A stretch of DNA of 64,000 bases from Trypanosoma brucei. Its lineage: Eukaryota. The notes under the pieces are model-generated. The model saw only the letters and a program-made list of their open reading frames with translations. It was not told the DNA's origin and searched no databases. The position numbers and the translations under genes were made by a program. Each line of letters begins with the position of its first letter. Within the stretch, counting starts at the first letter, position 1. Location: contig CM000208.1 of the NCBI GenBank assembly GCA_000002445.1, positions 1,664,001-1,728,000 of the forward strand. The letters run 5' to 3'. Below are positions 27,258 through 63,748 of the stretch, piece after piece.

Positions 27258-28727
27258 ATGATGCAAGGATTTCCCTCCTTAGGGGAAAAGGACCCAGCTG
27301 CCAAGCCACCAGCAGAGGGAAAACCGACCTCAGCTTCGGGAGAGAAACAACCGAGCGAAGCAGTACAGGGAATACCGCTATACCAAGGTGATGGTGATGA
27401 TAAAGAAGGATTGAAACGTTTTGTGGTACAGGGGTATAAGGATGTGTGGGCTGCAATATTATACATTTTATGCATTTTCGCCATCGCTGGAATCGGAGTA
27501 CACGCAATGTGGTCGAGAGGCTCCTCCGAAGAAAAACAAGAGGTTAAAAAAACAACAGCAGAAAATGAGCCTTCAAATTCAAAGTCCCTTTGGAGTGTCT
27601 ACTTTCTTGTTGGTGTGGCTGCTGCCGCTTCCATCGGTGCGGCGTCCGTGTCGTTTCTACTGATGCGTATGTTTCCACGCAAGACAATTCTTTTCGCAAA
27701 CATTGCCGCCATAATTATAAACATCATTTCAGCTTTGCTAGCAATATTATCAGGACACATGGTAAGCGGTATCCTCATGATGACATTATGTGCCCTGCAC
27801 ATAATGTGGTTTTTCTTTGCACGGCACCGAATTCCTTTTGCTGCAGAACTTCTCAAGGCCTCTATCGATGTGTTGTCTGGCTACAAGGCGGTATATTTAT
27901 TCAATGTCATGTTATGTGTTGGTTGCACAGGATTACTTATGCTGTGGGCAAACGCTTTTATGTGGACGTATCAAAGAAGTCAAGCGCAAGATTCATCATT
28001 CTCCGGTATAATTTACCTTTTCCTTATGCTTTTCTTATTTTGGACATCGCAGGTGACAACTAATCTGATGCATGTAACAACTGCTGGACTTACTGCTACA
28101 TGGTACTTTGCTGGTAAGGAGAATATGCCAAAGAATCCCACCCTCGCCTCATTCAAGCGAGGTACCACCACAAGCTTCGGCTCCATTTGCTTTGGGTCAC
28201 TGCTTGTGGCAATTATCCGTCTCATACGGTGGCTCGTGTCAACCGCAGAAGACAGTGAACATGAAATATTACGCTGTGTATTCCTTTGTATTATTGGTTG
28301 TTTGGAGAGGCTGATGGAATACTTCAACACATACGCATTTGTTCATGTTGCCATCTATGGTTGTGGGTACATTGAAGCAGCGAAAATGACATGGGAGTTG
28401 TGTAAACAGTGTGTGTTTTCTGCCCTGTTCAATGACACTCTGATTGATGTAACACTCGGGCTACTTGCTACTTGTGGTTCGCTACTGGTTGGTAGTGTTT
28501 TTGGTTTTCTCTTAAAATCCTGGGCAGCATTCGCGCTTGGTTTTGCCGTTTCTATATTGGTTCACCTCCTCATATTCTCCCCCGTGGGTAGTGCTGTAAC
28601 CACCTTATTCGTATGTTATGCGGAAGTGCCTGAGGGCCTTGAGCACTCATCCCCTGACTTGTACGCGGCTCTTCAGAGAACTGACCAAAACGGCACATCA
28701 AATGGAGCAGCACCTCCACGTGTGTAA
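27258..28727 (+). CDS. CTL/Pns1-like (SLC44 / 'Choline_transpo' family) multi-pass membrane transporter, array copy 1
   Basis: Conserved family core 'ATWYFAGKENMPKNPTLASFKRGTTTSFGSICFGSLLVAIIRLIRW' and 'CLERLMEYFNTYAFVHVAIYGCGYIEAAKMTWEL...NDTLIDVTLGLLATCGSLLVG'. These match Pns1/CTL 'WYF.....P..P...S..R.....GS.AFGSL..AI...IR' and 'CL...L.Y.N.YA....AIYG..F...AK.....L..N.......D.V.D..L..G.L.V'. The protein has ~10 predicted TM helices. The substrate cannot be inferred. Confidence 0.75.
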   Translation: MMQGFPSLGEKDPAAKPPAEGKPTSASGEKQPSEAVQGIPLYQGDGDDKEGLKRFVVQGYKDVWAAILYILCIFAIAGIGVHAMWSRGSSEEKQEVKKTTAENEPSNSKSLWSVYFLVGVAAAASIGAASVSFLLMRMFPRKTILFANIAAIIINIISALLAILSGHMVSGILMMTLCALHIMWFFFARHRIPFAAELLKASIDVLSGYKAVYLFNVMLCVGCTGLLMLWANAFMWTYQRSQAQDSSFSGIIYLFLMLFLFWTSQVTTNLMHVTTAGLTATWYFAGKENMPKNPTLASFKRGTTTSFGSICFGSLLVAIIRLIRWLVSTAEDSEHEILRCVFLCIIGCLERLMEYFNTYAFVHVAIYGCGYIEAAKMTWELCKQCVFSALFNDTLIDVTLGLLATCGSLLVGSVFGFLLKSWAAFALGFAVSILVHLLIFSPVGSAVTTLFVCYAEVPEGLEHSSPDLYAALQRTDQNGTSNGAAPPRV

Positions 28728-29407: not shown

Positions 29408-30880
29408 ATGAACAAGCAATACGGAACAGAAACAAATCGCTACGACTATGATGTGTGGCAGGAAAATCAGCGGAATTGTCGGCAGGAATGTTCACCACAA
29501 GCTGTGCCGCTACAAGGAATACCGCTATACCAAGGTGATGGTGATGATAAAGAAGAGCTGAAACGTTTTGTGGTACAAGGGTATAAGGATGTGTGGGCTG
29601 CAATATTATACATTTTATGCATTCTTGCAACTATTGGGCTTGGAATATATAATATTGTGAAGCCTGATGCTTCAGGAGAAGAAGAAGAGGAAAGTGTCGT
29701 ATCGGTTAAATCATCTAACCCGTTTTCTGGTGTGTTTAAAAGTGTTTACATTTGGATTGCCGTTGCTGGTGGAATTGCCATAGCTGTGGCGTCGCTTTCC
29801 TTTCTCTTTATGAGGATGTTTCCTCGGAAGATTATTATTGTGGCAAATGTTGTCTCGATTATCATCAATATTGGAGGCGCCGCTGCCGCCATTGTGATGG
29901 GGGTGCTTCCACTTGGCATTGCTTTACTCATTATGTGCGCTATGCACATACTGTGGTTTTACTTTGCACGGCACCGAATTCCTTTTGCTGCAGAACTTCT
30001 CAAGGCCTCTATCGATGTGTTGTCTGGCTACAAGGCGGTATATTTATTCAATGTCATGTTATGTGTTGGTTGTGCGGGGTTTACCATATTATGGGGGTAC
30101 GCAGCTGTTCCTTCACTAGAAACTGCCAGTAACAAAGGTGACAGTGGGGCACTAGCGGTTTTGCTACTTCTTTTCCTTATGTTGGTTTTTTTTTGGTCAT
30201 CTCAAGTTACTGGAAATCTGATGCATGTAACAACTGCTGGACTTACTGCTACATGGTACTTTGCTGGTAAGGAGAATATGCCAAAGAATCCCACCCTCGC
30301 CTCATTCAAGCGAGGTACCACCACAAGCTTCGGCTCCATTTGCTTTGGGTCACTGCTTGTGGCAATTATCCGTCTCATACGGTGGCTCGTGTCAACCGCA
30401 GAAGGTAGTGAACATGAAATATTACGCTGTATATTCCTTTGTATTATTGGTTGTTTGGAGAGTTTGATGGAATACTTCAACACATACGCATTTGTTCATG
30501 TTGCCATCTATGGTTGTGGGTACATTGAAGCAGCGAAAATGACATGGGAGTTGTGTAAACAGTGTGTGTTTTCTGCCCTGTTCAATGACACTCTAATTGA
30601 TGTAACACTGAATCTACTTGTTACTTGTGGTTCGCTACTGGTTGGTAGTGTTGTCGGTCTACTCTTCAGATCCTGGGTAGCATTCGCGCTTGGTTTTGCC
30701 GTTTCTATATTGGTTCACCTCCTCATATTCTCCCCCGTAACCAGTGCTGTAACCACCTTATTCGTATGTTATGCGGAAGTGCCTGAGGGCCTTGAGCACT
30801 CATCCCCTGACTTGTACGCGGCTCTTCAGAGAACTGACCAAAACGGCACATCAAATGGAGCAGCACCTCCACGTGTGTAA
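29408..30880 (+). CDS. CTL/Pns1-like transporter, array copy 2
   Basis: Same conserved core as copy 1. Distinct N-terminus 'MNKQYGTETNRYDYDV' and a unique TM2-4 segment. Confidence 0.75.
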   Translation: MNKQYGTETNRYDYDVWQENQRNCRQECSPQAVPLQGIPLYQGDGDDKEELKRFVVQGYKDVWAAILYILCILATIGLGIYNIVKPDASGEEEEESVVSVKSSNPFSGVFKSVYIWIAVAGGIAIAVASLSFLFMRMFPRKIIIVANVVSIIINIGGAAAAIVMGVLPLGIALLIMCAMHILWFYFARHRIPFAAELLKASIDVLSGYKAVYLFNVMLCVGCAGFTILWGYAAVPSLETASNKGDSGALAVLLLLFLMLVFFWSSQVTGNLMHVTTAGLTATWYFAGKENMPKNPTLASFKRGTTTSFGSICFGSLLVAIIRLIRWLVSTAEGSEHEILRCIFLCIIGCLESLMEYFNTYAFVHVAIYGCGYIEAAKMTWELCKQCVFSALFNDTLIDVTLNLLVTCGSLLVGSVVGLLFRSWVAFALGFAVSILVHLLIFSPVTSAVTTLFVCYAEVPEGLEHSSPDLYAALQRTDQNGTSNGAAPPRV

Positions 30881-31579: not shown

Positions 31580-33052
31580 ATGAACAAGCAACACGGAACA
31601 GAAACAAATCGTTACGACTATGATGTGTCGCAGAAGGATCGGCGAAATTCTGATTCTCGGGAGTGTTCACCACATGCTGTGCCGCTACAAGGAATACCGC
31701 TATACCAAGGTGAAGGTAATAATCAAGAAGGATTGAAACGTTTTGTGGTACAAGGGTACAAGGATGTGTGGGCTGCAATATTATACATTTTATGCATTCT
31801 TGCAACTATTGGGCTTGGAATATATAATATTATGCGGAAGGATTCTTCGATGAAGGATGTAGAAAGCACTAATACAACAGCAGAAAATGAGCCTTCAAAT
31901 TCAAAGTCCCTTTGGAGTGTCTACTTTCTTGTTGGCGTGGCTGCTGCCGCTTCCATCGGTGCGGCGTCCGTGTCGTTTCTACTGATGCAGAAGTTTCCAC
32001 GCAAGACAATTCTTTTTGCAAACATTGCTGCCATAATTATAAACATCATTTCAGCTCTTTTGGCGTATCGATCAGGCTATATTGTGGCTTCTGCTGTAAT
32101 GATGACATTATGTGCCCTGCACATACTGTGGTTTTACTTTGCACGGCACCGAATTCCTTTTGCTGCAGAACTTCTCAAGGCCTCTATCGATGTGTTGTCT
32201 GGCTACAAGGCGGTATATTTATTCAATGTCATGTTATGTGTTGGTTGCACAGGATTACTTATACTGTGGGCAAACGCTTTTATGTGGGCGTTTCGGAGGG
32301 TTAAATGGGAGACATCCGCTTCTTTCGGGTGGCCTCTGCTTGTGTTCCTTATGCTTTTCTTATTTTGGACATCGCAGGTGACAACTAATCTGATGCATGT
32401 AACAACTGCTGGACTTACTGCTACATGGTACTTTGCTGGTAAGGAGAATATGCCAAAGAATCCCACCCTCGCCTCATTCAAGCGAGGTACCACCACAAGC
32501 TTCGGCTCCATTTGCTTTGGGTCACTGCTTGTGGCAATTATCCGTCTCATACGGTGGCTCGTGTCAACCGCAGAAGACAGTGAACATGAAATATTACGCT
32601 GTATATTCCTTTGTATTATTGGTTGTTTGGAGAGTTTGATGGAATACTTCAACACATACGCATTTGTTCATGTTGCCATCTATGGTTGTGGGTACATTGA
32701 AGCAGCGAAAATGACATGGGAGTTGTGTAAACAGTGTGTGTTTTCTGCCCTATTCAATGACACTCTGATTGATGTAACACTCGGGCTACTTGCTACTTGT
32801 GGTTCGCTACTGGTTGGTAGTGTTTTTGGTTTTCTCTTAAAATCCTGGGCAGCATTCGCGTTTGGTTTTGCCGTTTCTATATTGGTTCACCTCCTCATAT
32901 TCTCCCCCGTGGGTAGTGCTGTAACCACCTTATTCGTATGTTATGCGGAAGTGCCTGAGGGCCTTGAGCACTCATCCCCTGACTTGTACGCGGCTCTTCA
33001 GAGAACTGACCAAAACGGCACATCAAATGGAGCAGCACCTCCACGTGTGTAA
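31580..33052 (+). CDS. CTL/Pns1-like transporter, array copy 3 (mosaic of copy-2-type N-terminus and copy-1-type middle)
   Basis: N-terminus 'MNKQHGTETNRYDYDV' is copy-2-like. The middle 'TTAENEPSNSKSLWSVYFLVGVAAAASIGAASVSFLLM' is identical to copy 1. The C-terminal half is identical to copy 1. Confidence 0.75.
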   Translation: MNKQHGTETNRYDYDVSQKDRRNSDSRECSPHAVPLQGIPLYQGEGNNQEGLKRFVVQGYKDVWAAILYILCILATIGLGIYNIMRKDSSMKDVESTNTTAENEPSNSKSLWSVYFLVGVAAAASIGAASVSFLLMQKFPRKTILFANIAAIIINIISALLAYRSGYIVASAVMMTLCALHILWFYFARHRIPFAAELLKASIDVLSGYKAVYLFNVMLCVGCTGLLILWANAFMWAFRRVKWETSASFGWPLLVFLMLFLFWTSQVTTNLMHVTTAGLTATWYFAGKENMPKNPTLASFKRGTTTSFGSICFGSLLVAIIRLIRWLVSTAEDSEHEILRCIFLCIIGCLESLMEYFNTYAFVHVAIYGCGYIEAAKMTWELCKQCVFSALFNDTLIDVTLGLLATCGSLLVGSVFGFLLKSWAAFAFGFAVSILVHLLIFSPVGSAVTTLFVCYAEVPEGLEHSSPDLYAALQRTDQNGTSNGAAPPRV

Positions 33053-57334: not shown

Positions 57335-58297
57335 ATGAATCGTACGGGTGGGTCGGTATATGCACATGCGCTATCGCAGTTTGCTGTTTGCAGACAGCCA
57401 TGGAATGAATATATTGGCCTTCTCACAAAGCAGGACTCTACACCTTACCACACAGAACCGCAAGAAAAACCAGCATACAGGGGTCGCAAGCAAGGGCGGG
57501 AGGGATGGCTTTTTGGGCAGCAGGTGCAACTGCACTATCACCGCTTTCCCGACGAACAACTCATCACAAATCTCTCTCGTTGGCGCACCGGTGAGACGGT
57601 AGGAGATATTGCCATGCAACAGTTCCGCAATGCACAACCATTCGACATTGAAGATAAGGACCCACAAGGGGTGCAGAGACCATCACCTGAAGTTTATATG
57701 AAGCTTAACTACAAGAATCCCGCCACCATATCTCGTTTCTTAACTAGGACGGGTCACATGTACCCGGCTGACATTCTTCCACTCAACCCTGAGGCTGTAG
57801 TAAAGCTTCGCGTAGCGAAGGCGCAGGCCATTCGCATTGGCCTCTACCCACGCTTTGGAAACCCTTTCTGGTTTCGCTCGCAAAAATTCAGACCGAAGGC
57901 GTACCAGGAGAATTATGACCCGACGACGTACTCCACAAAGCGCACCGTTGAACATTTTGCGTATAACTGGGTCCAAACCGACCGCATACGGCGCTATTTT
58001 AGGGAACTTGAGGCTGTGCACACGAGCGGTTCTGCCAGTGCCCGTGGCAGTGGTGGTGGCACAACGGCAGAGCACAAGCAGCAGGATCAGTTTTACTCGC
58101 CCGAGAATCAACCGATTTCTCTGCATCGGAATAATATATCGTACATGGAGGATGTTGGGCGCTCAGTGAAGAATCCAACCGTACCGGGACTCATGTCGAC
58201 AAAAGGTATGAAGAAGAAGTTCCACAATCTGTATTCCTCAACATCGACGAAGCGCATGGGTTTCTCGAACCCGACACTGGGTATCAAGAAGGTGTAA
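57335..58297 (+). CDS. bS18-like (ribosomal protein S18 fold) protein, probably mitoribosomal
   Basis: 'LNYKNPATISRFLTRTGHMYPADILPLNPEAVVKLRVAKAQAIRIGLYP' fits the S18 signature 'i.YKN...L.rFi...GkI.prr.TgL..k.QR.L..AIKrAR.lgLlP'. It sits in a 320-aa protein with long extensions, typical of kinetoplastid mitoribosomal proteins. Confidence 0.5.
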   Translation: MNRTGGSVYAHALSQFAVCRQPWNEYIGLLTKQDSTPYHTEPQEKPAYRGRKQGREGWLFGQQVQLHYHRFPDEQLITNLSRWRTGETVGDIAMQQFRNAQPFDIEDKDPQGVQRPSPEVYMKLNYKNPATISRFLTRTGHMYPADILPLNPEAVVKLRVAKAQAIRIGLYPRFGNPFWFRSQKFRPKAYQENYDPTTYSTKRTVEHFAYNWVQTDRIRRYFRELEAVHTSGSASARGSGGGTTAEHKQQDQFYSPENQPISLHRNNISYMEDVGRSVKNPTVPGLMSTKGMKKKFHNLYSSTSTKRMGFSNPTLGIKKV

Positions 58298-58774
58298 AGG
58301 AGGTCTTATCCGCCTGTGTTTACACAGCTTTCGTCAAAACTCCTCCTATTTGATTATTTTCTGTTTGTTGAAATGATTACGTTTGGTGTCTTCATGCTGT
58401 ATACCTATATATATATAAATATATATTCTTTTTATAGTGACTGCTCCGGCTCTGTCAATCGTATTTGCCCATTTTATTCTGACACACTGTTCTCTTTTTT
58501 TTTTTTCGTAGTGATGTAGTAGTGGTATTTATGCGAAATTTTGACTTGTTGGGGGGACCCCTCATAGTAGCCACCACTGAATAATACACAGTACTCCAAA
58601 GAGGAGTAGAGAAGTTCGTGAATGATGCACTTTCATCTGTAAAACAAGGTCCACTATCTCAAATATGTGAACGGAAGTACAAGTAGGGAGCAAATGTAGC
58701 TGACTATTGCGGCACCAACATGTGTGCACGTAGCTTTGCAAGACCTACTGAGGGTTCGTAAGTGAAGCAATTTT

Positions 58775-58860
58775 TTTTTTTGTTGTTTCTCTTCTCTCCT
58801 CATTTCCTCATTACCTTTTTTTTCTTTCTGCACTTCTTCGTACTGCAAGGTGATGCCTCA
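58775..58860 (+). promoter_or_regulatory. long polypyrimidine tract (SL-addition/polyadenylation signal) upstream of the endonuclease V gene
   Basis: 'ttttttttttttgttgtttctcttctctcctcatttcctcattaccttttttttctttctgcacttcttcgtactgcaag'. The automatic ORF (58762) reads through this tract as 'FFFLLFLFSPHFLITFFFF', which is not credible protein sequence. Confidence 0.5.
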
Positions 58861-59004
58861 GTGTGCCCGCGGTTGCTTCTGTGGTGGTGTTTTTCTGTAA
58901 GGTCAAACAATCAACCCTCCGCCTCGTATTTTCCGGCGTCACGGCACCAGAAAGCGAACCTGTTGGGGTTCCTTGCGGGGTACATAAACACAGGAACTGA
59001 ACAT

Positions 59005-59955
59005 ATGGGTGTGGGAGAAATGAGTGAAGTTACCGCGACAAAGTTGGACATGTGGGCTTCCATGCAAAAAAGGTTGGCCGCTGAGGTGTGTGTACCCAAC
59101 ACCAATGGAATGGTGGAACTTTACGAGGAAGGTACTGAGTGTGTAAAGGCTCCACGCGACTCCTTCTTGCTTCCCCACCACCTTGTGGAAGAGTTTGCAT
59201 CTTCTGCAATTGGACCACAACTTGAACGCGATGAACGCCGTCGGGGAAGGCACTCCCCTCCCATTCTCCGCCACGTCGGCGGCGTTGACATATCCTTTAT
59301 TCAGGGAGGTGATACCGCAGTTGCTTGTCTTGCCGTGATGGAGTATCCGTCTATGAAAGTGTGCCGTACTTTTGTTCAGCGTTGTGAGGTCAAGGAACCA
59401 TATATAACGTCTTACCTCGCGTTCCGGGAGGCGGGCCCACTGGTGCAGTTGATTGAGAGCGTACGTGATGAGTTATTTGAAGAGGCATGTTTCCCCCAAC
59501 TTCTACTAGTTGATGGTTGTGGCGTGCACCATCCACTTCGATGTGGACTTGCAAGTCACTTGGGAGTTGTATTGGATATTCCCACCGTTGGATGCGCTAA
59601 GAAGTTCCTGTCGATAGATGGGATTACACGCGACTCTATGGATGCTCGTTTTGCAGAGGAACACACCGTAGCATCACGTCGATTTGAAGGTACATACCTT
59701 TCCAGTAGCTCGGGGGTGTGCGAGGCTTGCTTCGTACCTATAATTGGCGAGAGTGGAAGACTTTGGGGTTATGCGGCTACGCCCAACCGTCGAGTTAAAA
59801 ACCCCATTTTCATTTCGCCTGGGAACCGCGTCGGATATGCAGAGGCCGCAGCGCTGGCTGTTTCCATGTGCAAATATCGTGTTCCCGAACCCATCCGCGC
59901 TGCCGACTTGCACTCGCGTGAGTTTATCCGACGGATTCAACTAAATGAATGCTGA
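59005..59955 (+). CDS. endonuclease V (deoxyinosine 3' endonuclease, Nfi family)
   Basis: 'VGGVDISF' (catalytic Asp region), 'PYITSYLAFREAGPL', 'LLLVDGCGVHHPLRCGLASHLGVVLDIPTVGCAKKFL', 'PIFISPGNRVGYAEAAALAVSMCKYRVPEPIRAADLHSREFIR'. All are canonical EndoV blocks. The start is placed at the first Met after the polypyrimidine tract; 59020 is an alternative. Confidence 0.85.
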   Translation: MGVGEMSEVTATKLDMWASMQKRLAAEVCVPNTNGMVELYEEGTECVKAPRDSFLLPHHLVEEFASSAIGPQLERDERRRGRHSPPILRHVGGVDISFIQGGDTAVACLAVMEYPSMKVCRTFVQRCEVKEPYITSYLAFREAGPLVQLIESVRDELFEEACFPQLLLVDGCGVHHPLRCGLASHLGVVLDIPTVGCAKKFLSIDGITRDSMDARFAEEHTVASRRFEGTYLSSSSGVCEACFVPIIGESGRLWGYAATPNRRVKNPIFISPGNRVGYAEAAALAVSMCKYRVPEPIRAADLHSREFIRRIQLNEC

Positions 59956-60447: not shown

Positions 60448-61545
60448 ATGATATTTTTACTGTTCATAAGCTTTATTGGTTGGGTACTCTGGTCCCTGTA
60501 CTCCCTCTTGTCGTACCGCCGCGTGTCTGTAGCGGGGAAGACTGTGGTGATTACAGGCGGCTCCGTAGGCATTGGAAAGCACCTTGCGCTTCATTTCCTT
60601 CGGCTTGGCGCGACCGTGCATGTATGGGACGACAACAAGGAGAAACTGTCACAGTTGTCTAAGGAGGCACTGCTGATTCCCTCTCCTCGGCCAACCAAAA
60701 GTGCAAACTGTGACACAGAAGGGTTAACGGAAACGAGCGCAAACGAGCTTGAGGGTAACGACTGCTTGAAGACAGTTGTTGTTGATTTGTCCAATCGGTT
60801 TCATCTGCACCGTCTAGTGAAGCAGGTTGGAACCGTCCATATCGTCGTTAATGCGGCACTAAATGTGAGCAGCAAGGCGTTTTTGGACCATGCTGACAAC
60901 GCTATTGAACGCATCCTGCACGTCAACGCTTTGTGCCCCCTTATCCTCGCAAGAGCCTTCCTCCCGGCGATGTTGGAGCGTCGGGACGGGTACTTCGTCA
61001 CTATTACGGATGCGAACGGGTTGCTGGGAAACGCGTCACAGCCGGATTTCGCTGCCTCACAATGGGCGGCCGTTGGTGCGCACGAGAGCATCCAAATGCT
61101 AATTAGAGAAAATGGATGCTGCGGCAAGGTTCGTACGACATTGTTATGTCCGTACAATGTTGTGAGTAGTCAACCAACGTTACTACGGACACCATCACCG
61201 TTCTCTTCTTCTAGAGTAATGAACACAGCAGACGCGGCAAACACCGCAGAGGGGCAGTCAGTAAACACCATAAGGAGGTCTCGTATTCTGGGTTACTTCC
61301 TTTCAATCTTTAGGCGCCCTGTTACCCCGGAGGAGGCGGCAGAGGCCTGCGTTTGGGCCATCACACACGGTGTGGAACGGCTGTATATCCCGTACAGCCT
61401 GCTGTTCCTGACCCTTTTCAGGTTTTTACCGGTTCCGTGGTTTATGTGGGTGATTTCCCCGTCCACCCAAAGTACCAATGTAGAGACCAGCAAGGGGAAT
61501 TGTCCAAGCGAAAGTGACAGTAGCAGGAGTAGTTCGGAGAAATGA
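60448..61545 (+). CDS. short-chain dehydrogenase/reductase (SDR)-fold protein with N-terminal TM anchor; catalytic residues appear substituted
   Basis: Rossmann motif 'GKTVVITGGSVGIGKHLAL' (TGxxxGxG) and 'VVNAALNV' (NNAG-like). The position of the catalytic Y-x-x-x-K reads 'FAASQ' (61048..61062). The catalytic Ser region reads 'VTITDANG'. A hydrophobic helix at the N-terminus is 'IFLLFISFIGWVLWSLYSLL'. Confidence 0.7.
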   Translation: MIFLLFISFIGWVLWSLYSLLSYRRVSVAGKTVVITGGSVGIGKHLALHFLRLGATVHVWDDNKEKLSQLSKEALLIPSPRPTKSANCDTEGLTETSANELEGNDCLKTVVVDLSNRFHLHRLVKQVGTVHIVVNAALNVSSKAFLDHADNAIERILHVNALCPLILARAFLPAMLERRDGYFVTITDANGLLGNASQPDFAASQWAAVGAHESIQMLIRENGCCGKVRTTLLCPYNVVSSQPTLLRTPSPFSSSRVMNTADAANTAEGQSVNTIRRSRILGYFLSIFRRPVTPEEAAEACVWAITHGVERLYIPYSLLFLTLFRFLPVPWFMWVISPSTQSTNVETSKGNCPSESDSSRSSSEK

Positions 61546-62542: not shown

Positions 62543-62577
62543 GTGTGTGTGTGTGTGTGTATGTGTGTGTGTGTGTG
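62543..62577. repeat. (GT)n microsatellite
   Basis: 'gtgtgtgtgtgtgtgtgtatgtgtgtgtgtgtgtg' in the GAPDH 5' flank. Confidence 0.9.

Positions 62578-62725: not shown

Positions 62726-63748
<1,023 letters not shown>

What the first reader, a model, noticed from the sequence alone, without database searches (positions are those of the whole stretch)
60990..61065. SDR-fold protein with all three catalytic positions apparently substituted (candidate pseudo-dehydrogenase)
The 365-aa protein keeps the Rossmann dinucleotide-binding glycine motif (ITGGSVGIGK) and the NNAG-like 'VVNAAL'. By spacing, the classical SDR catalytic Ser region reads 'FVTITDANG' (Thr/Asp instead of Ser). The Y-x-x-x-K motif reads 'F-A-A-S-Q' (Tyr->Phe, Lys->Gln) within the otherwise typical context '...PDFAASQWAAVGAHESIQML' (compare 'YSASKFAVRGFTESL'). 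An N-terminal TM anchor suggests an ER/membrane protein. It could be a non-catalytic, NAD(P)-binding regulatory or scaffold subunit rather than an enzyme.
Basis: inference. Interest (0 to 1): 0.5.

Follow-up and report, generated by a model that had tools for sequence, protein, structure and literature searches.

The report
Conserved dead SDR-fold protein in trypanosomes
This Trypanosoma brucei gene (Tb927.10.6870) encodes a membrane-anchored relative of lipid-droplet hydroxysteroid/retinol dehydrogenases that has lost its catalytic residues, yet is conserved, under selection and expressed across trypanosomatid parasites, so it most likely has a non-enzymatic role that nobody has studied.

Summary
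ORF 60448..61545 (+) encodes 365 aa and is identical to T. b. brucei Tb927.10.6870 (UniProt Q38AS0). It is a classical SDR fold closest to human HSD17B13/HSD17B11 (SDR16C). An ungapped alignment puts the catalytic Ser/Tyr/Lys at D188/F201/Q205. Only Asn160 of the tetrad survives, and no shifted YxxxK exists.

This is not an error or a decaying gene. Of 164 nearest non-trypanosomatid homologues, 163 keep S-Y-K. Syntenic orthologues (downstream of endonuclease V) occur in Trypanosoma, Leptomonas and Phytomonas. All 17 family members aligned, including Strigomonas and unnamed assemblies, lack the Lys, the NNAG Asn/Gly and the nicotinamide-contacting Thr. Tyr is lost only in African trypanosomes, T. 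grayi and one unnamed sequence.

The gene is under purifying selection like its enzyme neighbours (dN/dS 0.27). Peptides were found in two proteomes, in organelle fractions, and the protein is not flagged as mitochondrial.

"NAD(P)-binding" is doubtful, because the glycine loop is intact in T. brucei but degenerate in 12 of 17 orthologues.

My best inference is a non-catalytic, membrane-anchored (probably ER or lipid-droplet) scaffold or regulator acting through the conserved SDR helix interface. No partner was identified. I rate it a new member of a known kind, of moderate interest.

The parts
60448..61545 (+). Coding sequence of the 365-aa pseudo-SDR (Tb927.10.6870 / Tb10.6k15.3880 / Q38AS0), stop codon included
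   Evidence: ORF. Pfam adh_short 2e-23. Identical to the TREU927 protein P0014. Gene ID from the neighbours MRPS18 Tb927.10.6850 and EndoV Tb927.10.6860, and directly from Peikert 2017 Suppl. Data 8.
60448..60516 (+). N-terminal hydrophobic anchor, aa 1-23 (MIFLLFISFIGWVLWSLYSLLSY)
   Evidence: Kyte-Doolittle window-19 peak of 2.06. AF2 helix 2-22. Aligns to the N-terminal hydrophobic segment of HSD17B13. M1, I2, L4, W15 and Y23 are nearly invariant in the family.
60553..60576 (+). Glycine-rich dinucleotide loop TGGSVGIG (aa 36-43). Intact in T. brucei.
   Evidence: The central Gly41 is kept in only 5 of 17 orthologues (E/D/L/I/P elsewhere).
60628..60630 (+). Asp61 of the 'WD' motif at the end of strand beta2. 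By general SDR knowledge this is the acidic residue that contacts the adenosine ribose in NAD-preferring SDRs.
   Evidence: Invariant in 17 of 17 family members and 92% of active relatives.
60670..60765 (+). Lineage-specific insertion 1 (aa 75-106), predicted disordered
   Evidence: pLDDT 53-63. Mean top-residue fraction 0.23 in the family. Absent from active relatives.
60850..60861 (+). Degenerate NNAG motif, N135-A-A-L138
   Evidence: The second Asn is 0 of 17 and the Gly is 0 of 17 in the family, against 93% and 95% in active relatives.
60925..60927 (+). Asn160, the only retained residue of the N-S-Y-K tetrad
   Evidence: 82% in the family, 100% in active relatives.
61009..61011 (+). Asp188 (GAT) at the catalytic Ser position
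   Evidence: Ungapped alignment to HSD17B13/11. The family has C/D/N/S/A/M and others at this position. Active relatives have Ser in 99%.
61042..61110 (+). Helix alphaF (aa 199-221). It carries Phe201 (TTC 61048-50) at the Tyr position and Gln205 (CAA 61060-62) at the Lys position. It is among the most conserved blocks of the family (PD[YF]AASQWxxxGxHxS).
   Evidence: Lys is 0 of 17 (Q12, H3, R1, E1). Tyr is kept in 12 of 17. P199, A203 and G210 are invariant; D200, W206, H212 and S214 are in 16 of 17.
61165..61323 (+). Lineage-specific, Ser/Thr/Ala-rich insertion 2 (aa 240-292), predicted disordered. It replaces the PGxxxT-type motif and the substrate-loop region.
   Evidence: pLDDT below 50 for 242-260 and 265-279. 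The motif P[YF][FY]IxTGMF is present in all active relatives shown and absent in all 18 trypanosomatid sequences. Thr240 is 0 of 17.
61396..61458 (+). C-terminal hydrophobic segment, aa 317-337 (SLLFLTLFRFLPVPWFMWVIS), with family-invariant P328 and W331
   Evidence: Hydropathy 1.83. AF2 helices 317-324 and 329-336. Conservation.

Best explanation
Tb927.10.6870 is a catalytically dead, membrane-anchored member of the classical SDR superfamily, closest to the SDR16C group (HSD17B13, HSD17B11, RDHE2).

Shown:
- The fold and the N-terminal anchor are those of HSD17B13/11.
- The catalytic Ser, Tyr and Lys are D188, F201 and Q205.
- The catalytic Lys, the NNAG Asn/Gly and the nicotinamide-contacting Thr were already lost before Trypanosoma split from the Leptomonas, Phytomonas and Strigomonas lineages.
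- The gene has stayed in one syntenic position, intact and under purifying selection as strong as on its enzyme neighbours.
- The protein is made, and it is found in organelle fractions without being flagged as a mitochondrial import substrate.

Inferred:
- The protein no longer oxidises or reduces anything.
- It sits with its Rossmann domain on the cytosolic face of the ER or lipid-droplet membrane.
- It acts through protein-protein or protein-lipid contacts. The part under the tightest family-specific constraint is helix alphaF, which in classical SDRs forms the oligomer interface together with alphaE. This suggests it works as a homo- or hetero-oligomeric scaffold or regulator.
- Dinucleotide binding may persist in African trypanosomes, where the glycine loop and Asp61 are intact. 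It is not a conserved requirement of the family.
For: - Fold and family: Pfam adh_short 2e-23. Best PDB sequence hits are HSD17B13 and HSD17B11, E about 1e-20. The AF2 model has pLDDT 80.7, and the Foldseek top 21 hits are all HSD17B13/11, with target TM-scores 0.73-0.86. The nearest active relatives are annotated all-trans-retinol dehydrogenase or RDHE2.
- Dead site: ungapped alignment, no alternative Tyr/Lys nearby, and 163 of 164 active relatives keep S-Y-K.
- Family-wide loss: K205 0/17, N136 0/17, G138 0/17, T240 0/17, S188 2/17, G41 5/17.
- Orthology by synteny (EndoV then SDR, same strand) in Leptomonas, Phytomonas, T. cruzi, T. c. marinkellei, T. vivax and T. theileri.
- Selection: dN/dS 0.265, against EndoV 0.245, glucokinase 0.208 and aminotransferase 0.303.
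- Protein detected: Dejung 2016 S1 Table. Peikert 2017 found 4 unique peptides in organelle-enriched fractions, with the mitochondrial reference-set and ATOM40-importome columns blank.
- Conserved alphaF block and C-terminal LPxPW.
- Precedent inside SDR16C: the inactive DHRS3 Y188A mutant still binds and activates RDH10 (PMC7022914).
Against: - No partner protein, localisation image or phenotype was found. The TrypTag and glycosome-inventory supplements held here contain no entry, and no paper text mentions the gene.
- No active SDR16C paralogue in trypanosomatids was identified among the named hits. The search tools could not address this properly.
- Loss of activity is inferred from sequence only.
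- The conserved Asp61/Asp113 and the intact glycine loop in T. brucei leave room for nucleotide binding.
- The conserved Gln at the Lys position (12 of 17) could reflect a new function of the pocket rather than mere decay.
- alphaF conservation is partly ancestral to all SDR16C proteins, so it does not prove a retained interface.
Confidence: 0.6

Rival explanations
1. Prozyme-type activator. The dead SDR forms a hetero-oligomer with an active, membrane-bound SDR of the parasite (for example a ketoacyl-CoA, ketosphinganine or retinol/sterol-type reductase). It controls that enzyme's activity or stability, as the AdoMetDC prozyme, the dead DHS paralogue and the PRMT prozyme do in T. brucei.
For: - Trypanosomatids use dead paralogues as obligate activators (PMC6221367, PMC3663545, PMC5201418, listed).
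- Within SDR16C, DHRS3 and RDH10 activate each other, and a catalytically inactive DHRS3 still activates RDH10 (PMC7022914).
- Helix alphaF, the classical SDR interface, is one of the most conserved blocks.
- Purifying selection persists despite the dead site.
Against: - No active close paralogue from a trypanosomatid appeared among the named hits.
- The nearest active sequences are about 30% identical and come from bacteria, metagenomes or animals.
- There are no interaction data.
- The known prozymes pair with recognisable paralogues in the same genome, and no such paralogue was found here.
Confidence: 0.15
2. NAD(H)-binding sensor or adaptor in African trypanosomes. The protein still binds the dinucleotide through the intact TGxxxGxG loop and Asp61 but does not turn it over. 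It would couple redox or nucleotide state to a membrane process. This is essentially the first reader's proposal.
For: - T. brucei, T. congolense, T. vivax, T. grayi and T. theileri keep TGxxxGxG.
- Asp61 is invariant, and Asp113 is kept in 15 of 17 family members.
- Gln, His or Arg at the Lys position could still hydrogen-bond the nicotinamide ribose (inference).
Against: - The NNAG Asn/Gly and the Thr of the PGxxxT-like motif are lost in every orthologue.
- Gly41 is replaced by Glu, Asp, Leu, Ile or Pro in 12 of 17 orthologues, including T. cruzi and Leptomonas.
- Binding therefore cannot be the conserved function of the family.
- The region after strand 6 is replaced by a disordered insertion.
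Confidence: 0.2
3. It is still an enzyme, using non-canonical residues or a different chemistry. Examples would be Asp188 acting as base, or a non-redox reaction such as isomerase, lyase or acyl-transfer in the old pocket.
For: The Gln at position 205 and the block P199-D200-x-A-A-S-Q-W are conserved more tightly than drift would predict. Divergent and atypical SDRs with altered motifs exist (general knowledge).
Against: - The residue at the Ser position is not conserved (D, N, C, S, A, M and others), and the Tyr position varies (Y, F, L, W).
- The cofactor motifs are degraded family-wide.
- The substrate-loop region is a variable, disordered, low-complexity insertion.
- No conserved polar residue replaces the lost triad.
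Confidence: 0.08
4. Sequencing or assembly error, or a gene decaying into a pseudogene in T. brucei.
For: F201 (TTC vs TAC) and Q205 (CAA vs AAA) are each one base away from Tyr and Lys.
Against: - The protein is identical in TREU927 and in a second Trypanozoon record, and differs by one residue in T. b. gambiense.
- T. congolense and T. vivax share the Gln and lack the Tyr.
- The ORF is intact in the 17 full-length family sequences.
- dN/dS is 0.27.
- Peptides were detected in two proteomic studies.
Confidence: 0.01

Closest known systems
Human HSD17B13 / HSD17B11 (SDR16C3 / SDR16C2), lipid-droplet/ER-anchored 17-beta-hydroxysteroid/retinol dehydrogenases (PDB 8g9v, 8g93, 9av8, 1yb1)
   Same: - Best sequence hits (E 8e-21 to 1e-19) and best fold hits (Foldseek E about 1e-20, target TM-score 0.73-0.86).
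- Same N-terminal hydrophobic anchor followed by the Rossmann core.
- Same 'WD' Asp, Asn of the tetrad, alphaF context (AAVGxHES) and C-terminal helices.
   Different: - S172/Y185/K189 are replaced by D188/F201/Q205.
- NNAG is replaced by NAAL.
- The PxxIxTGMF motif is lost.
- There are two disordered lineage-specific insertions (aa 75-106 and 240-292).
- Only 23-26% identity.
DHRS3-RDH10 retinoid oxidoreductase complex (SDR16C1 / SDR16C4)
   Same: Same SDR16C group. Membrane-bound SDR subunits work as a hetero-oligomer, and a catalytically inactive subunit (DHRS3 Y188A) still binds and activates its partner (PMC7022914). This is the closest functional precedent for a non-catalytic role.
   Different: Both natural subunits of that complex are active enzymes with intact motifs. 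No partner is known here, and retinoid metabolism is not established in trypanosomes.
HSDL1 (SDR12C3), a vertebrate 'inactive but conserved' SDR
   Same: A naturally inactive SDR with the catalytic Tyr replaced, conserved among species. Source: Meier et al. 2009, Chem Biol Interact 178:197, seen here only as a reference in PMC7064643. The Tyr-to-Phe detail is from my own knowledge.
   Different: It belongs to a different SDR family (12C). It keeps the Ser and Lys and the cofactor motifs (own knowledge), and it is restricted to animals.
Trypanosomatid 'prozymes' (AdoMetDC prozyme, dead deoxyhypusine synthase paralogue)
   Same: Catalytically dead enzyme homologues conserved across trypanosomatids and retained under selection (PMC6221367, PMC3663545, PMC5201418).
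   Different: Those have a recognisable active paralogue in the same genome and a demonstrated heteromer. Neither was shown here.

Membership tests
Classical SDR superfamily (Pfam PF00106 adh_short) | Rossmann-type alpha/beta fold of about 250 residues, scoring above the Pfam gathering threshold | tested here: met
   83.4 bits against a cutoff of 26.6. AF2 model with beta-alpha-beta core. About 2000 PDB SDR fold hits.
Classical SDR superfamily (Pfam PF00106 adh_short) | TGxxxGxG dinucleotide-binding loop | tested here: met
   T36-G-G-S-V-G41-I-G43 in T. brucei. Gly41 is lost in 12 of 17 orthologues.
Classical SDR superfamily (Pfam PF00106 adh_short) | NNAG motif | tested here: not met
   N135-A-A-L138. 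The second Asn and the Gly are each 0 of 17 in the family, against 93% and 95% in active relatives.
Classical SDR superfamily (Pfam PF00106 adh_short) | Catalytic tetrad Asn-Ser-Tyr-Lys (S...YxxxK) | tested here: not met
   N160 is kept. Ser is D188, Tyr is F201 and Lys is Q205. No shifted motif. It has the fold but cannot be filed as an active SDR enzyme.
SDR16C group (HSD17B11/13, RDHE2/SDR16C5-6, DHRS3, RDH10) | Closest sequence and structure similarity is to SDR16C members | tested here: met
   Top PDB sequence and fold hits are HSD17B13/11. Profile hits are named SDR16C6, RDHE2 or all-trans-retinol dehydrogenase.
SDR16C group (HSD17B11/13, RDHE2/SDR16C5-6, DHRS3, RDH10) | N-terminal hydrophobic membrane or lipid-droplet anchor preceding the Rossmann domain | tested here: met
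   aa 1-23 hydropathy 2.06 and AF2 helix 2-22. Aligns to HSD17B13 residues 8-30.
SDR16C group (HSD17B11/13, RDHE2/SDR16C5-6, DHRS3, RDH10) | Monophyly with SDR16C in a phylogeny of SDR families | not tested
   No tree of SDR families was built. The assignment rests on best hits only.
SDR16C group (HSD17B11/13, RDHE2/SDR16C5-6, DHRS3, RDH10) | NAD(P)-dependent retinol or hydroxysteroid oxidoreductase activity | not testable with these tools
   The sequence predicts none. A biochemical assay is needed.
Trypanosomatid prozyme-type pseudoenzymes | Catalytically dead homologue conserved across trypanosomatids under purifying selection | tested here: met
Trypanosomatid prozyme-type pseudoenzymes | An active paralogue in the same genome | tested here: inconclusive
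   None was recognised among the named hits. The exhaustive library carries no names, and the T. brucei proteome could not be searched directly.
Trypanosomatid prozyme-type pseudoenzymes | Heteromer with, and activation of, the active paralogue | not testable with these tools
   Requires co-purification and activity assays, or multimer modelling.

The most novel reading that the evidence does not exclude
Tb927.10.6870 and its orthologues are a further trypanosomatid 'prozyme'. On this reading, an ancient dead SDR16C-type subunit is the obligatory membrane-bound activator or stabiliser of an active lipid-pathway reductase. It would extend the dead-paralogue regulatory strategy of these parasites from polyamine, hypusine and methylation enzymes to membrane lipid metabolism.
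Probability: 0.15. Interest if true: 0.65.

Novelty: new member of a known kind. Interest (0 to 1): 0.4.

Why it matters
Databases name this gene 'short-chain dehydrogenase, putative', and metabolic reconstructions would count it as an oxidoreductase. The evidence here says it cannot be one. I found no paper in the searchable library that discusses it.

A dead enzyme kept under selection across trypanosomatids (the clade sampled here spans Trypanosoma, Phytomonas, Strigomonas and Leptomonas) implies a real non-catalytic job. Trypanosomatids are the clade where dead paralogues acting as enzyme activators were first worked out, and those pairs are parasite-specific drug-target interfaces. If this protein regulates an ER or lipid-droplet enzyme, it would be another such interface.

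It also offers a natural experiment for the debated non-catalytic roles of its human relatives, HSD17B13 and HSD17B11, on lipid droplets. If it is merely a structural membrane protein, the finding is a useful annotation correction and little more.

Tried and rejected
1. Shifted catalytic motif. I scanned aa 140-240 for Tyr and Lys and found only K143, Y182, K227 and Y236. Rejected.
2. Paralogue inside the window. tblastn of the protein against all 64 kb found only itself.
3. Literature on the gene. Searches for Tb927.10.6870, Tb10.6k15.3880, Q38AS0 and guessed orthologue IDs gave 0 papers. The search 'pseudoenzyme + short-chain dehydrogenase + Trypanosoma' gave 0. The one 'T. brucei SDR + lipid droplet' paper concerns a different gene, Tb927.11.10020.
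4. Localisation. The TrypTag paper supplements, the glycosome membrane inventory supplements and the kinetoplastid structure-annotation supplements have no entry in the text held.
5. Third word-indexed homologue search with the 17-sequence profile.
6. AFDB50 fold search, intended to find T. brucei SDR paralogues by name. The library was not available.
7. Deep pairwise dN/dS (T. brucei against T. vivax, T. theileri and T. cruzi). Synonymous sites are saturated, so only the T. cruzi / T. c. marinkellei pair is informative.
8. NCBIfam. No curated family comes near its cutoff (best 80 bits against 287), so no equivalog assignment is possible.
9. The look-up of organisms for top active-looking hits, including P0058, which shares the N-terminal anchor. 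They were unnamed Logan or JGI contigs, or a mite (Sarcoptes). None is demonstrably kinetoplastid.
Full report
**What is in the sequence.** The finding lies in an ORF at 60448..61545 on the + strand that encodes 365 aa.
- ITGGSVGIGK is aa 35-44.
- VVNAAL is aa 133-138.
- FVTITDANG is aa 183-191.
- PDFAASQWAAVGAHESIQML is aa 199-218.

The quoted coordinates 60990..61065 encode Y182 to W206. Residues 1-23 are strongly hydrophobic (Kyte-Doolittle 2.06 over 19 residues) and are modelled as one helix.

**Identity of the gene.** The protein is identical to the T. brucei brucei TREU927 entry (UniProt Q38AS0, XP_822928). It differs by one residue (D180E) from the T. b. gambiense entry. All large ORFs of the window are on the + strand, as expected for a trypanosome polycistronic unit. 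The gene order at this end of the window is:
- 57335..58297, a weak Ribosomal_S18 match, consistent with Tb927.10.6850, which is named mitochondrial ribosomal protein S18 in PMC7568655.
- 59005..59955, endonuclease V. This is Tb927.10.6860; the cloning primers in PMC5561087 match it exactly and give the published 316 aa.
- This ORF.
- 62753..63748, GAPDH, presumably Tb927.10.6880 (that ID is the next in order and occurs in the Dejung table).

Peikert et al. 2017 list Tb927.10.6870 = Tb10.6k15.3880 = Q38AS0, 'short-chain dehydrogenase, putative', 40.2 kDa. That settles the ID.

**Is the catalytic site really gone?** Pfam assigns adh_short (2e-23). The best solved relatives by sequence are HSD17B13 (8g9v, 8g93, 9av8) and HSD17B11 (1yb1), at E 8e-21 to 1e-19. 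Across the critical stretch the HMMER alignment has no gaps: GHIVTVASVCGHEGIPYLIPYCSSKFAAVGFH of HSD17B13 against GYFVTITDANGLLGNASQPDFAASQWAAVGAH. This places:
- Ser on D188.
- Tyr on F201.
- Lys on Q205.
- NNAG on NAAL.
- The tetrad Asn on N160, which is retained.

An AlphaFold2 model built on a 37-sequence alignment has mean pLDDT 80.7. It puts D188 two residues after strand 180-186 and F201/Q205 in the first two turns of helix 199-221, which is the classical SDR geometry. Foldseek against the PDB returns HSD17B13 and HSD17B11 chains as the top 21 hits (E about 1e-20, target-normalised TM-score 0.73-0.86).

There is no Lys between residues 143 and 227, and the only Tyr residues in that span are Y182 and Y236. 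A shifted YxxxK is therefore excluded.

**More than chance, and not an error.** I aligned 164 single-domain-size homologues from the exhaustive profile search and the other searches, with trypanosomatid sequences excluded. Of these, 163 have S-Y-K, and all 164 have the Tyr and the Asn.

Within trypanosomatids the substitutions recur but differ in detail (Ser/Tyr/Lys positions):

| Species or sequence | Ser | Tyr | Lys |
|---|---|---|---|
| T. brucei | D | F | Q |
| T. congolense | D | L | Q |
| T. vivax | N | F | Q |
| T. grayi | C | W | R |
| T. theileri | D | Y | Q |
| T. cruzi and T. c. marinkellei | N | Y | H |
| T. rangeli | S | Y | H |
| Leptomonas seymouri | C | Y | Q |
| Phytomonas EM1 | T | Y | Q |
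| Strigomonas culicis | not S (placement ambiguous) | Y | Q |

Several unnamed assemblies are similar.

**Orthology and time of loss.** These are true orthologues. The gene sits immediately downstream of the endonuclease V gene on the same strand in L. seymouri, Phytomonas, T. cruzi, T. c. marinkellei, T. vivax and T. theileri, with GAPDH one or two genes further on in every locus whose fetched stretch reaches that far (L. seymouri, T. cruzi, T. vivax, T. theileri).

Counts in 17 family sequences, against at least 85% conservation in active relatives, are:

| Position | Kept in family |
|---|---|
| Lys205 | 0/17 (Q12, H3, R1, E1) |
| Second Asn of NNAG | 0/17 |
| Gly of NNAG | 0/17 |
| Thr240 of the P-x-x-I-x-T-G-M-F motif (the PGxxxT equivalent, which by general SDR knowledge contacts the nicotinamide) | 0/17 |
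| Ser188 | 2/17 |
| Central Gly41 of the glycine loop | 5/17 |
| Tyr201 | 12/17 |

So the Lys, NNAG and the Thr motif were lost before Trypanosoma separated from the Leptomonas, Phytomonas and Strigomonas lineages. The Tyr was lost later and repeatedly, in the African trypanosomes, in T. grayi and in one unnamed sequence (P0101). The glycine loop decayed independently in the T. cruzi/T. rangeli group and in the non-Trypanosoma genera.

**The gene is functional.** The ORF is intact in all 17 full-length family sequences aligned. For the one pair that is not saturated at synonymous sites (T. cruzi against T. c. marinkellei, dS 0.16), dN/dS is 0.265. That is indistinguishable from the flanking genes for real enzymes: EndoV 0.245, glucokinase 0.208 and aminotransferase 0.303. 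Across deeper pairs its amino-acid identity (45-53%) is close to that of EndoV (50-62%).

The protein itself has been seen:
- It was quantified through stumpy-to-procyclic differentiation. It falls in profile 85, significantly down at 6 h and 24 h and otherwise unchanged (Dejung 2016, PMC4765897, S1 Table).
- It was identified with 4 unique peptides (14.8% coverage) in organelle-enriched fractions. The columns for the mitochondrial reference set and the ATOM40-dependent importome are both blank (Peikert 2017, PMC5436138).

This fits a membrane protein of a non-mitochondrial compartment, but it is not a localisation.

**Anatomy beyond the dead site.** The family has two length-variable, low-complexity insertions that are predicted disordered (aa 75-106 and 240-292; pLDDT 39-63). 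The second replaces the region that forms the nicotinamide-contacting and substrate loop in active relatives.

The best-conserved blocks within the family are:
- Strand 1 plus the glycine loop.
- Strand 6.
- Helix alphaF (P199, D200, A203, W206, G210, H212, S214).
- A C-terminal hydrophobic motif, L-P-x-P-W (P328 and W331 invariant).

Several of these residues are family-specific: W206 replaces Phe, and H212, R122, E310 and W331 have no counterpart. In classical SDRs, alphaE and alphaF build the main oligomer interface (general knowledge). So the pattern reads as 'active site abandoned, interface and membrane elements kept'. That reading is an inference; I could not inspect model coordinates.

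**How it most likely works.** The shown steps are that this is an SDR16C-like fold with an N-terminal anchor, dead by all sequence criteria, old, selected and expressed. The inferred steps are:
- It sits on the ER or lipid-droplet membrane, like HSD17B13 and HSD17B11.
- It acts non-catalytically, as a homo- or hetero-oligomeric scaffold or regulator.

The SDR16C group supplies a direct precedent. DHRS3 and RDH10 form a hetero-oligomeric complex, and the catalytically inactive DHRS3 Y188A still binds and activates RDH10 (PMC7022914). A naturally inactive but conserved SDR, HSDL1, is also on record (Meier 2009, cited in PMC7064643). Trypanosomatids are known for dead paralogues that activate enzymes (PMC6221367, PMC3663545, PMC5201418).

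I found no candidate partner. The nearest active sequences are about 30% identical and come from bacteria, metagenomes or animals, where they are named all-trans-retinol dehydrogenase or RDHE2. The tools could not search the T. brucei proteome by similarity.

'Pseudo-dehydrogenase' is well supported. 'NAD(P)-binding' is only possible, and only for the African trypanosomes, T. grayi and T. theileri. These keep TGxxxGxG, and Asp61 is invariant. Family-wide, however, the loop is not conserved, and two other cofactor motifs are gone everywhere. Dinucleotide binding therefore cannot be the conserved function. 'ER/membrane' is plausible. 'Regulatory or scaffold subunit' is untested.

**Novelty and score.** Pseudo-enzymes of the SDR fold, and dead enzyme paralogues in trypanosomes, are both known kinds. 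This particular family, conserved across trypanosomatids and annotated everywhere as a putative dehydrogenase, is not discussed in any paper I could search. It is a new member of a known kind. It is a solid annotation correction with a testable hypothesis, but not a surprise to a specialist. Interest is 0.4.

Noticed in passing
Protein P0187 (320 aa, Logan assembly, organism unknown): It is the only one of 164 non-trypanosomatid SDR16C-like homologues that lacks the triad. It has Cys/Tyr/Gln at Ser/Tyr/Lys, and NNAG reads INCTDA. This looks like an independent second origin of a dead SDR16C-like protein with the same Lys-to-Gln change.
   Followed up: partly
Protein P0058 (327 aa, Logan contig of 1158 bp): An apparently active relative (NNAG and S/Y/K intact). 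Its N-terminal anchor, MFLLIFLLVIGYILWSIYFYIVYRPRSV, is strikingly like the trypanosome one, MIFLLFISFIGWVLWSLYSLLSYRRVSV. It could represent the active ancestral type from a related protist. The organism could not be determined.
   Followed up: partly
window 27258..28727, 29408..30880, 31580..33052 (+): Three tandem ORFs of 489-490 aa. The first two match Pfam Choline_transpo (plasma-membrane choline transporter-like) at E about 1e-67. The third was not scanned.
   Followed up: partly
window 62543..62577: A (GT)17.5 microsatellite in the intergenic region between the pseudo-SDR and the GAPDH gene.
   Followed up: no
window 58762..59955 versus 59005..59955: The mechanical ORF for endonuclease V starts at a GTG 81 codons upstream of the experimentally used ATG (59005). 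The published 316-aa TbEndoV matches from 59005.
   Followed up: yes
L003 (T. cruzi), L004, L001 (Leptomonas), L002 (Phytomonas), L006 (T. theileri) versus the window and L005 (T. vivax): There are local synteny differences. A glucokinase gene lies upstream of EndoV in T. cruzi, Leptomonas and Phytomonas, but not in T. brucei or T. vivax, where the ~320-aa gene that is MRPS18 in T. brucei directly precedes EndoV. An aminotransferase gene lies between the SDR and GAPDH in T. cruzi, T. theileri and Leptomonas, but not in T. brucei or T. vivax.
   Followed up: no
Proteins P0054, P0055, P0057, P0060, P0067: Several top-scoring hits are 500-1355 aa gene models containing two or three tandem SDR16C-like domains. 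They are either tandem gene arrays fused by gene callers or genuine multi-domain proteins. I excluded them from the motif census.
   Followed up: no
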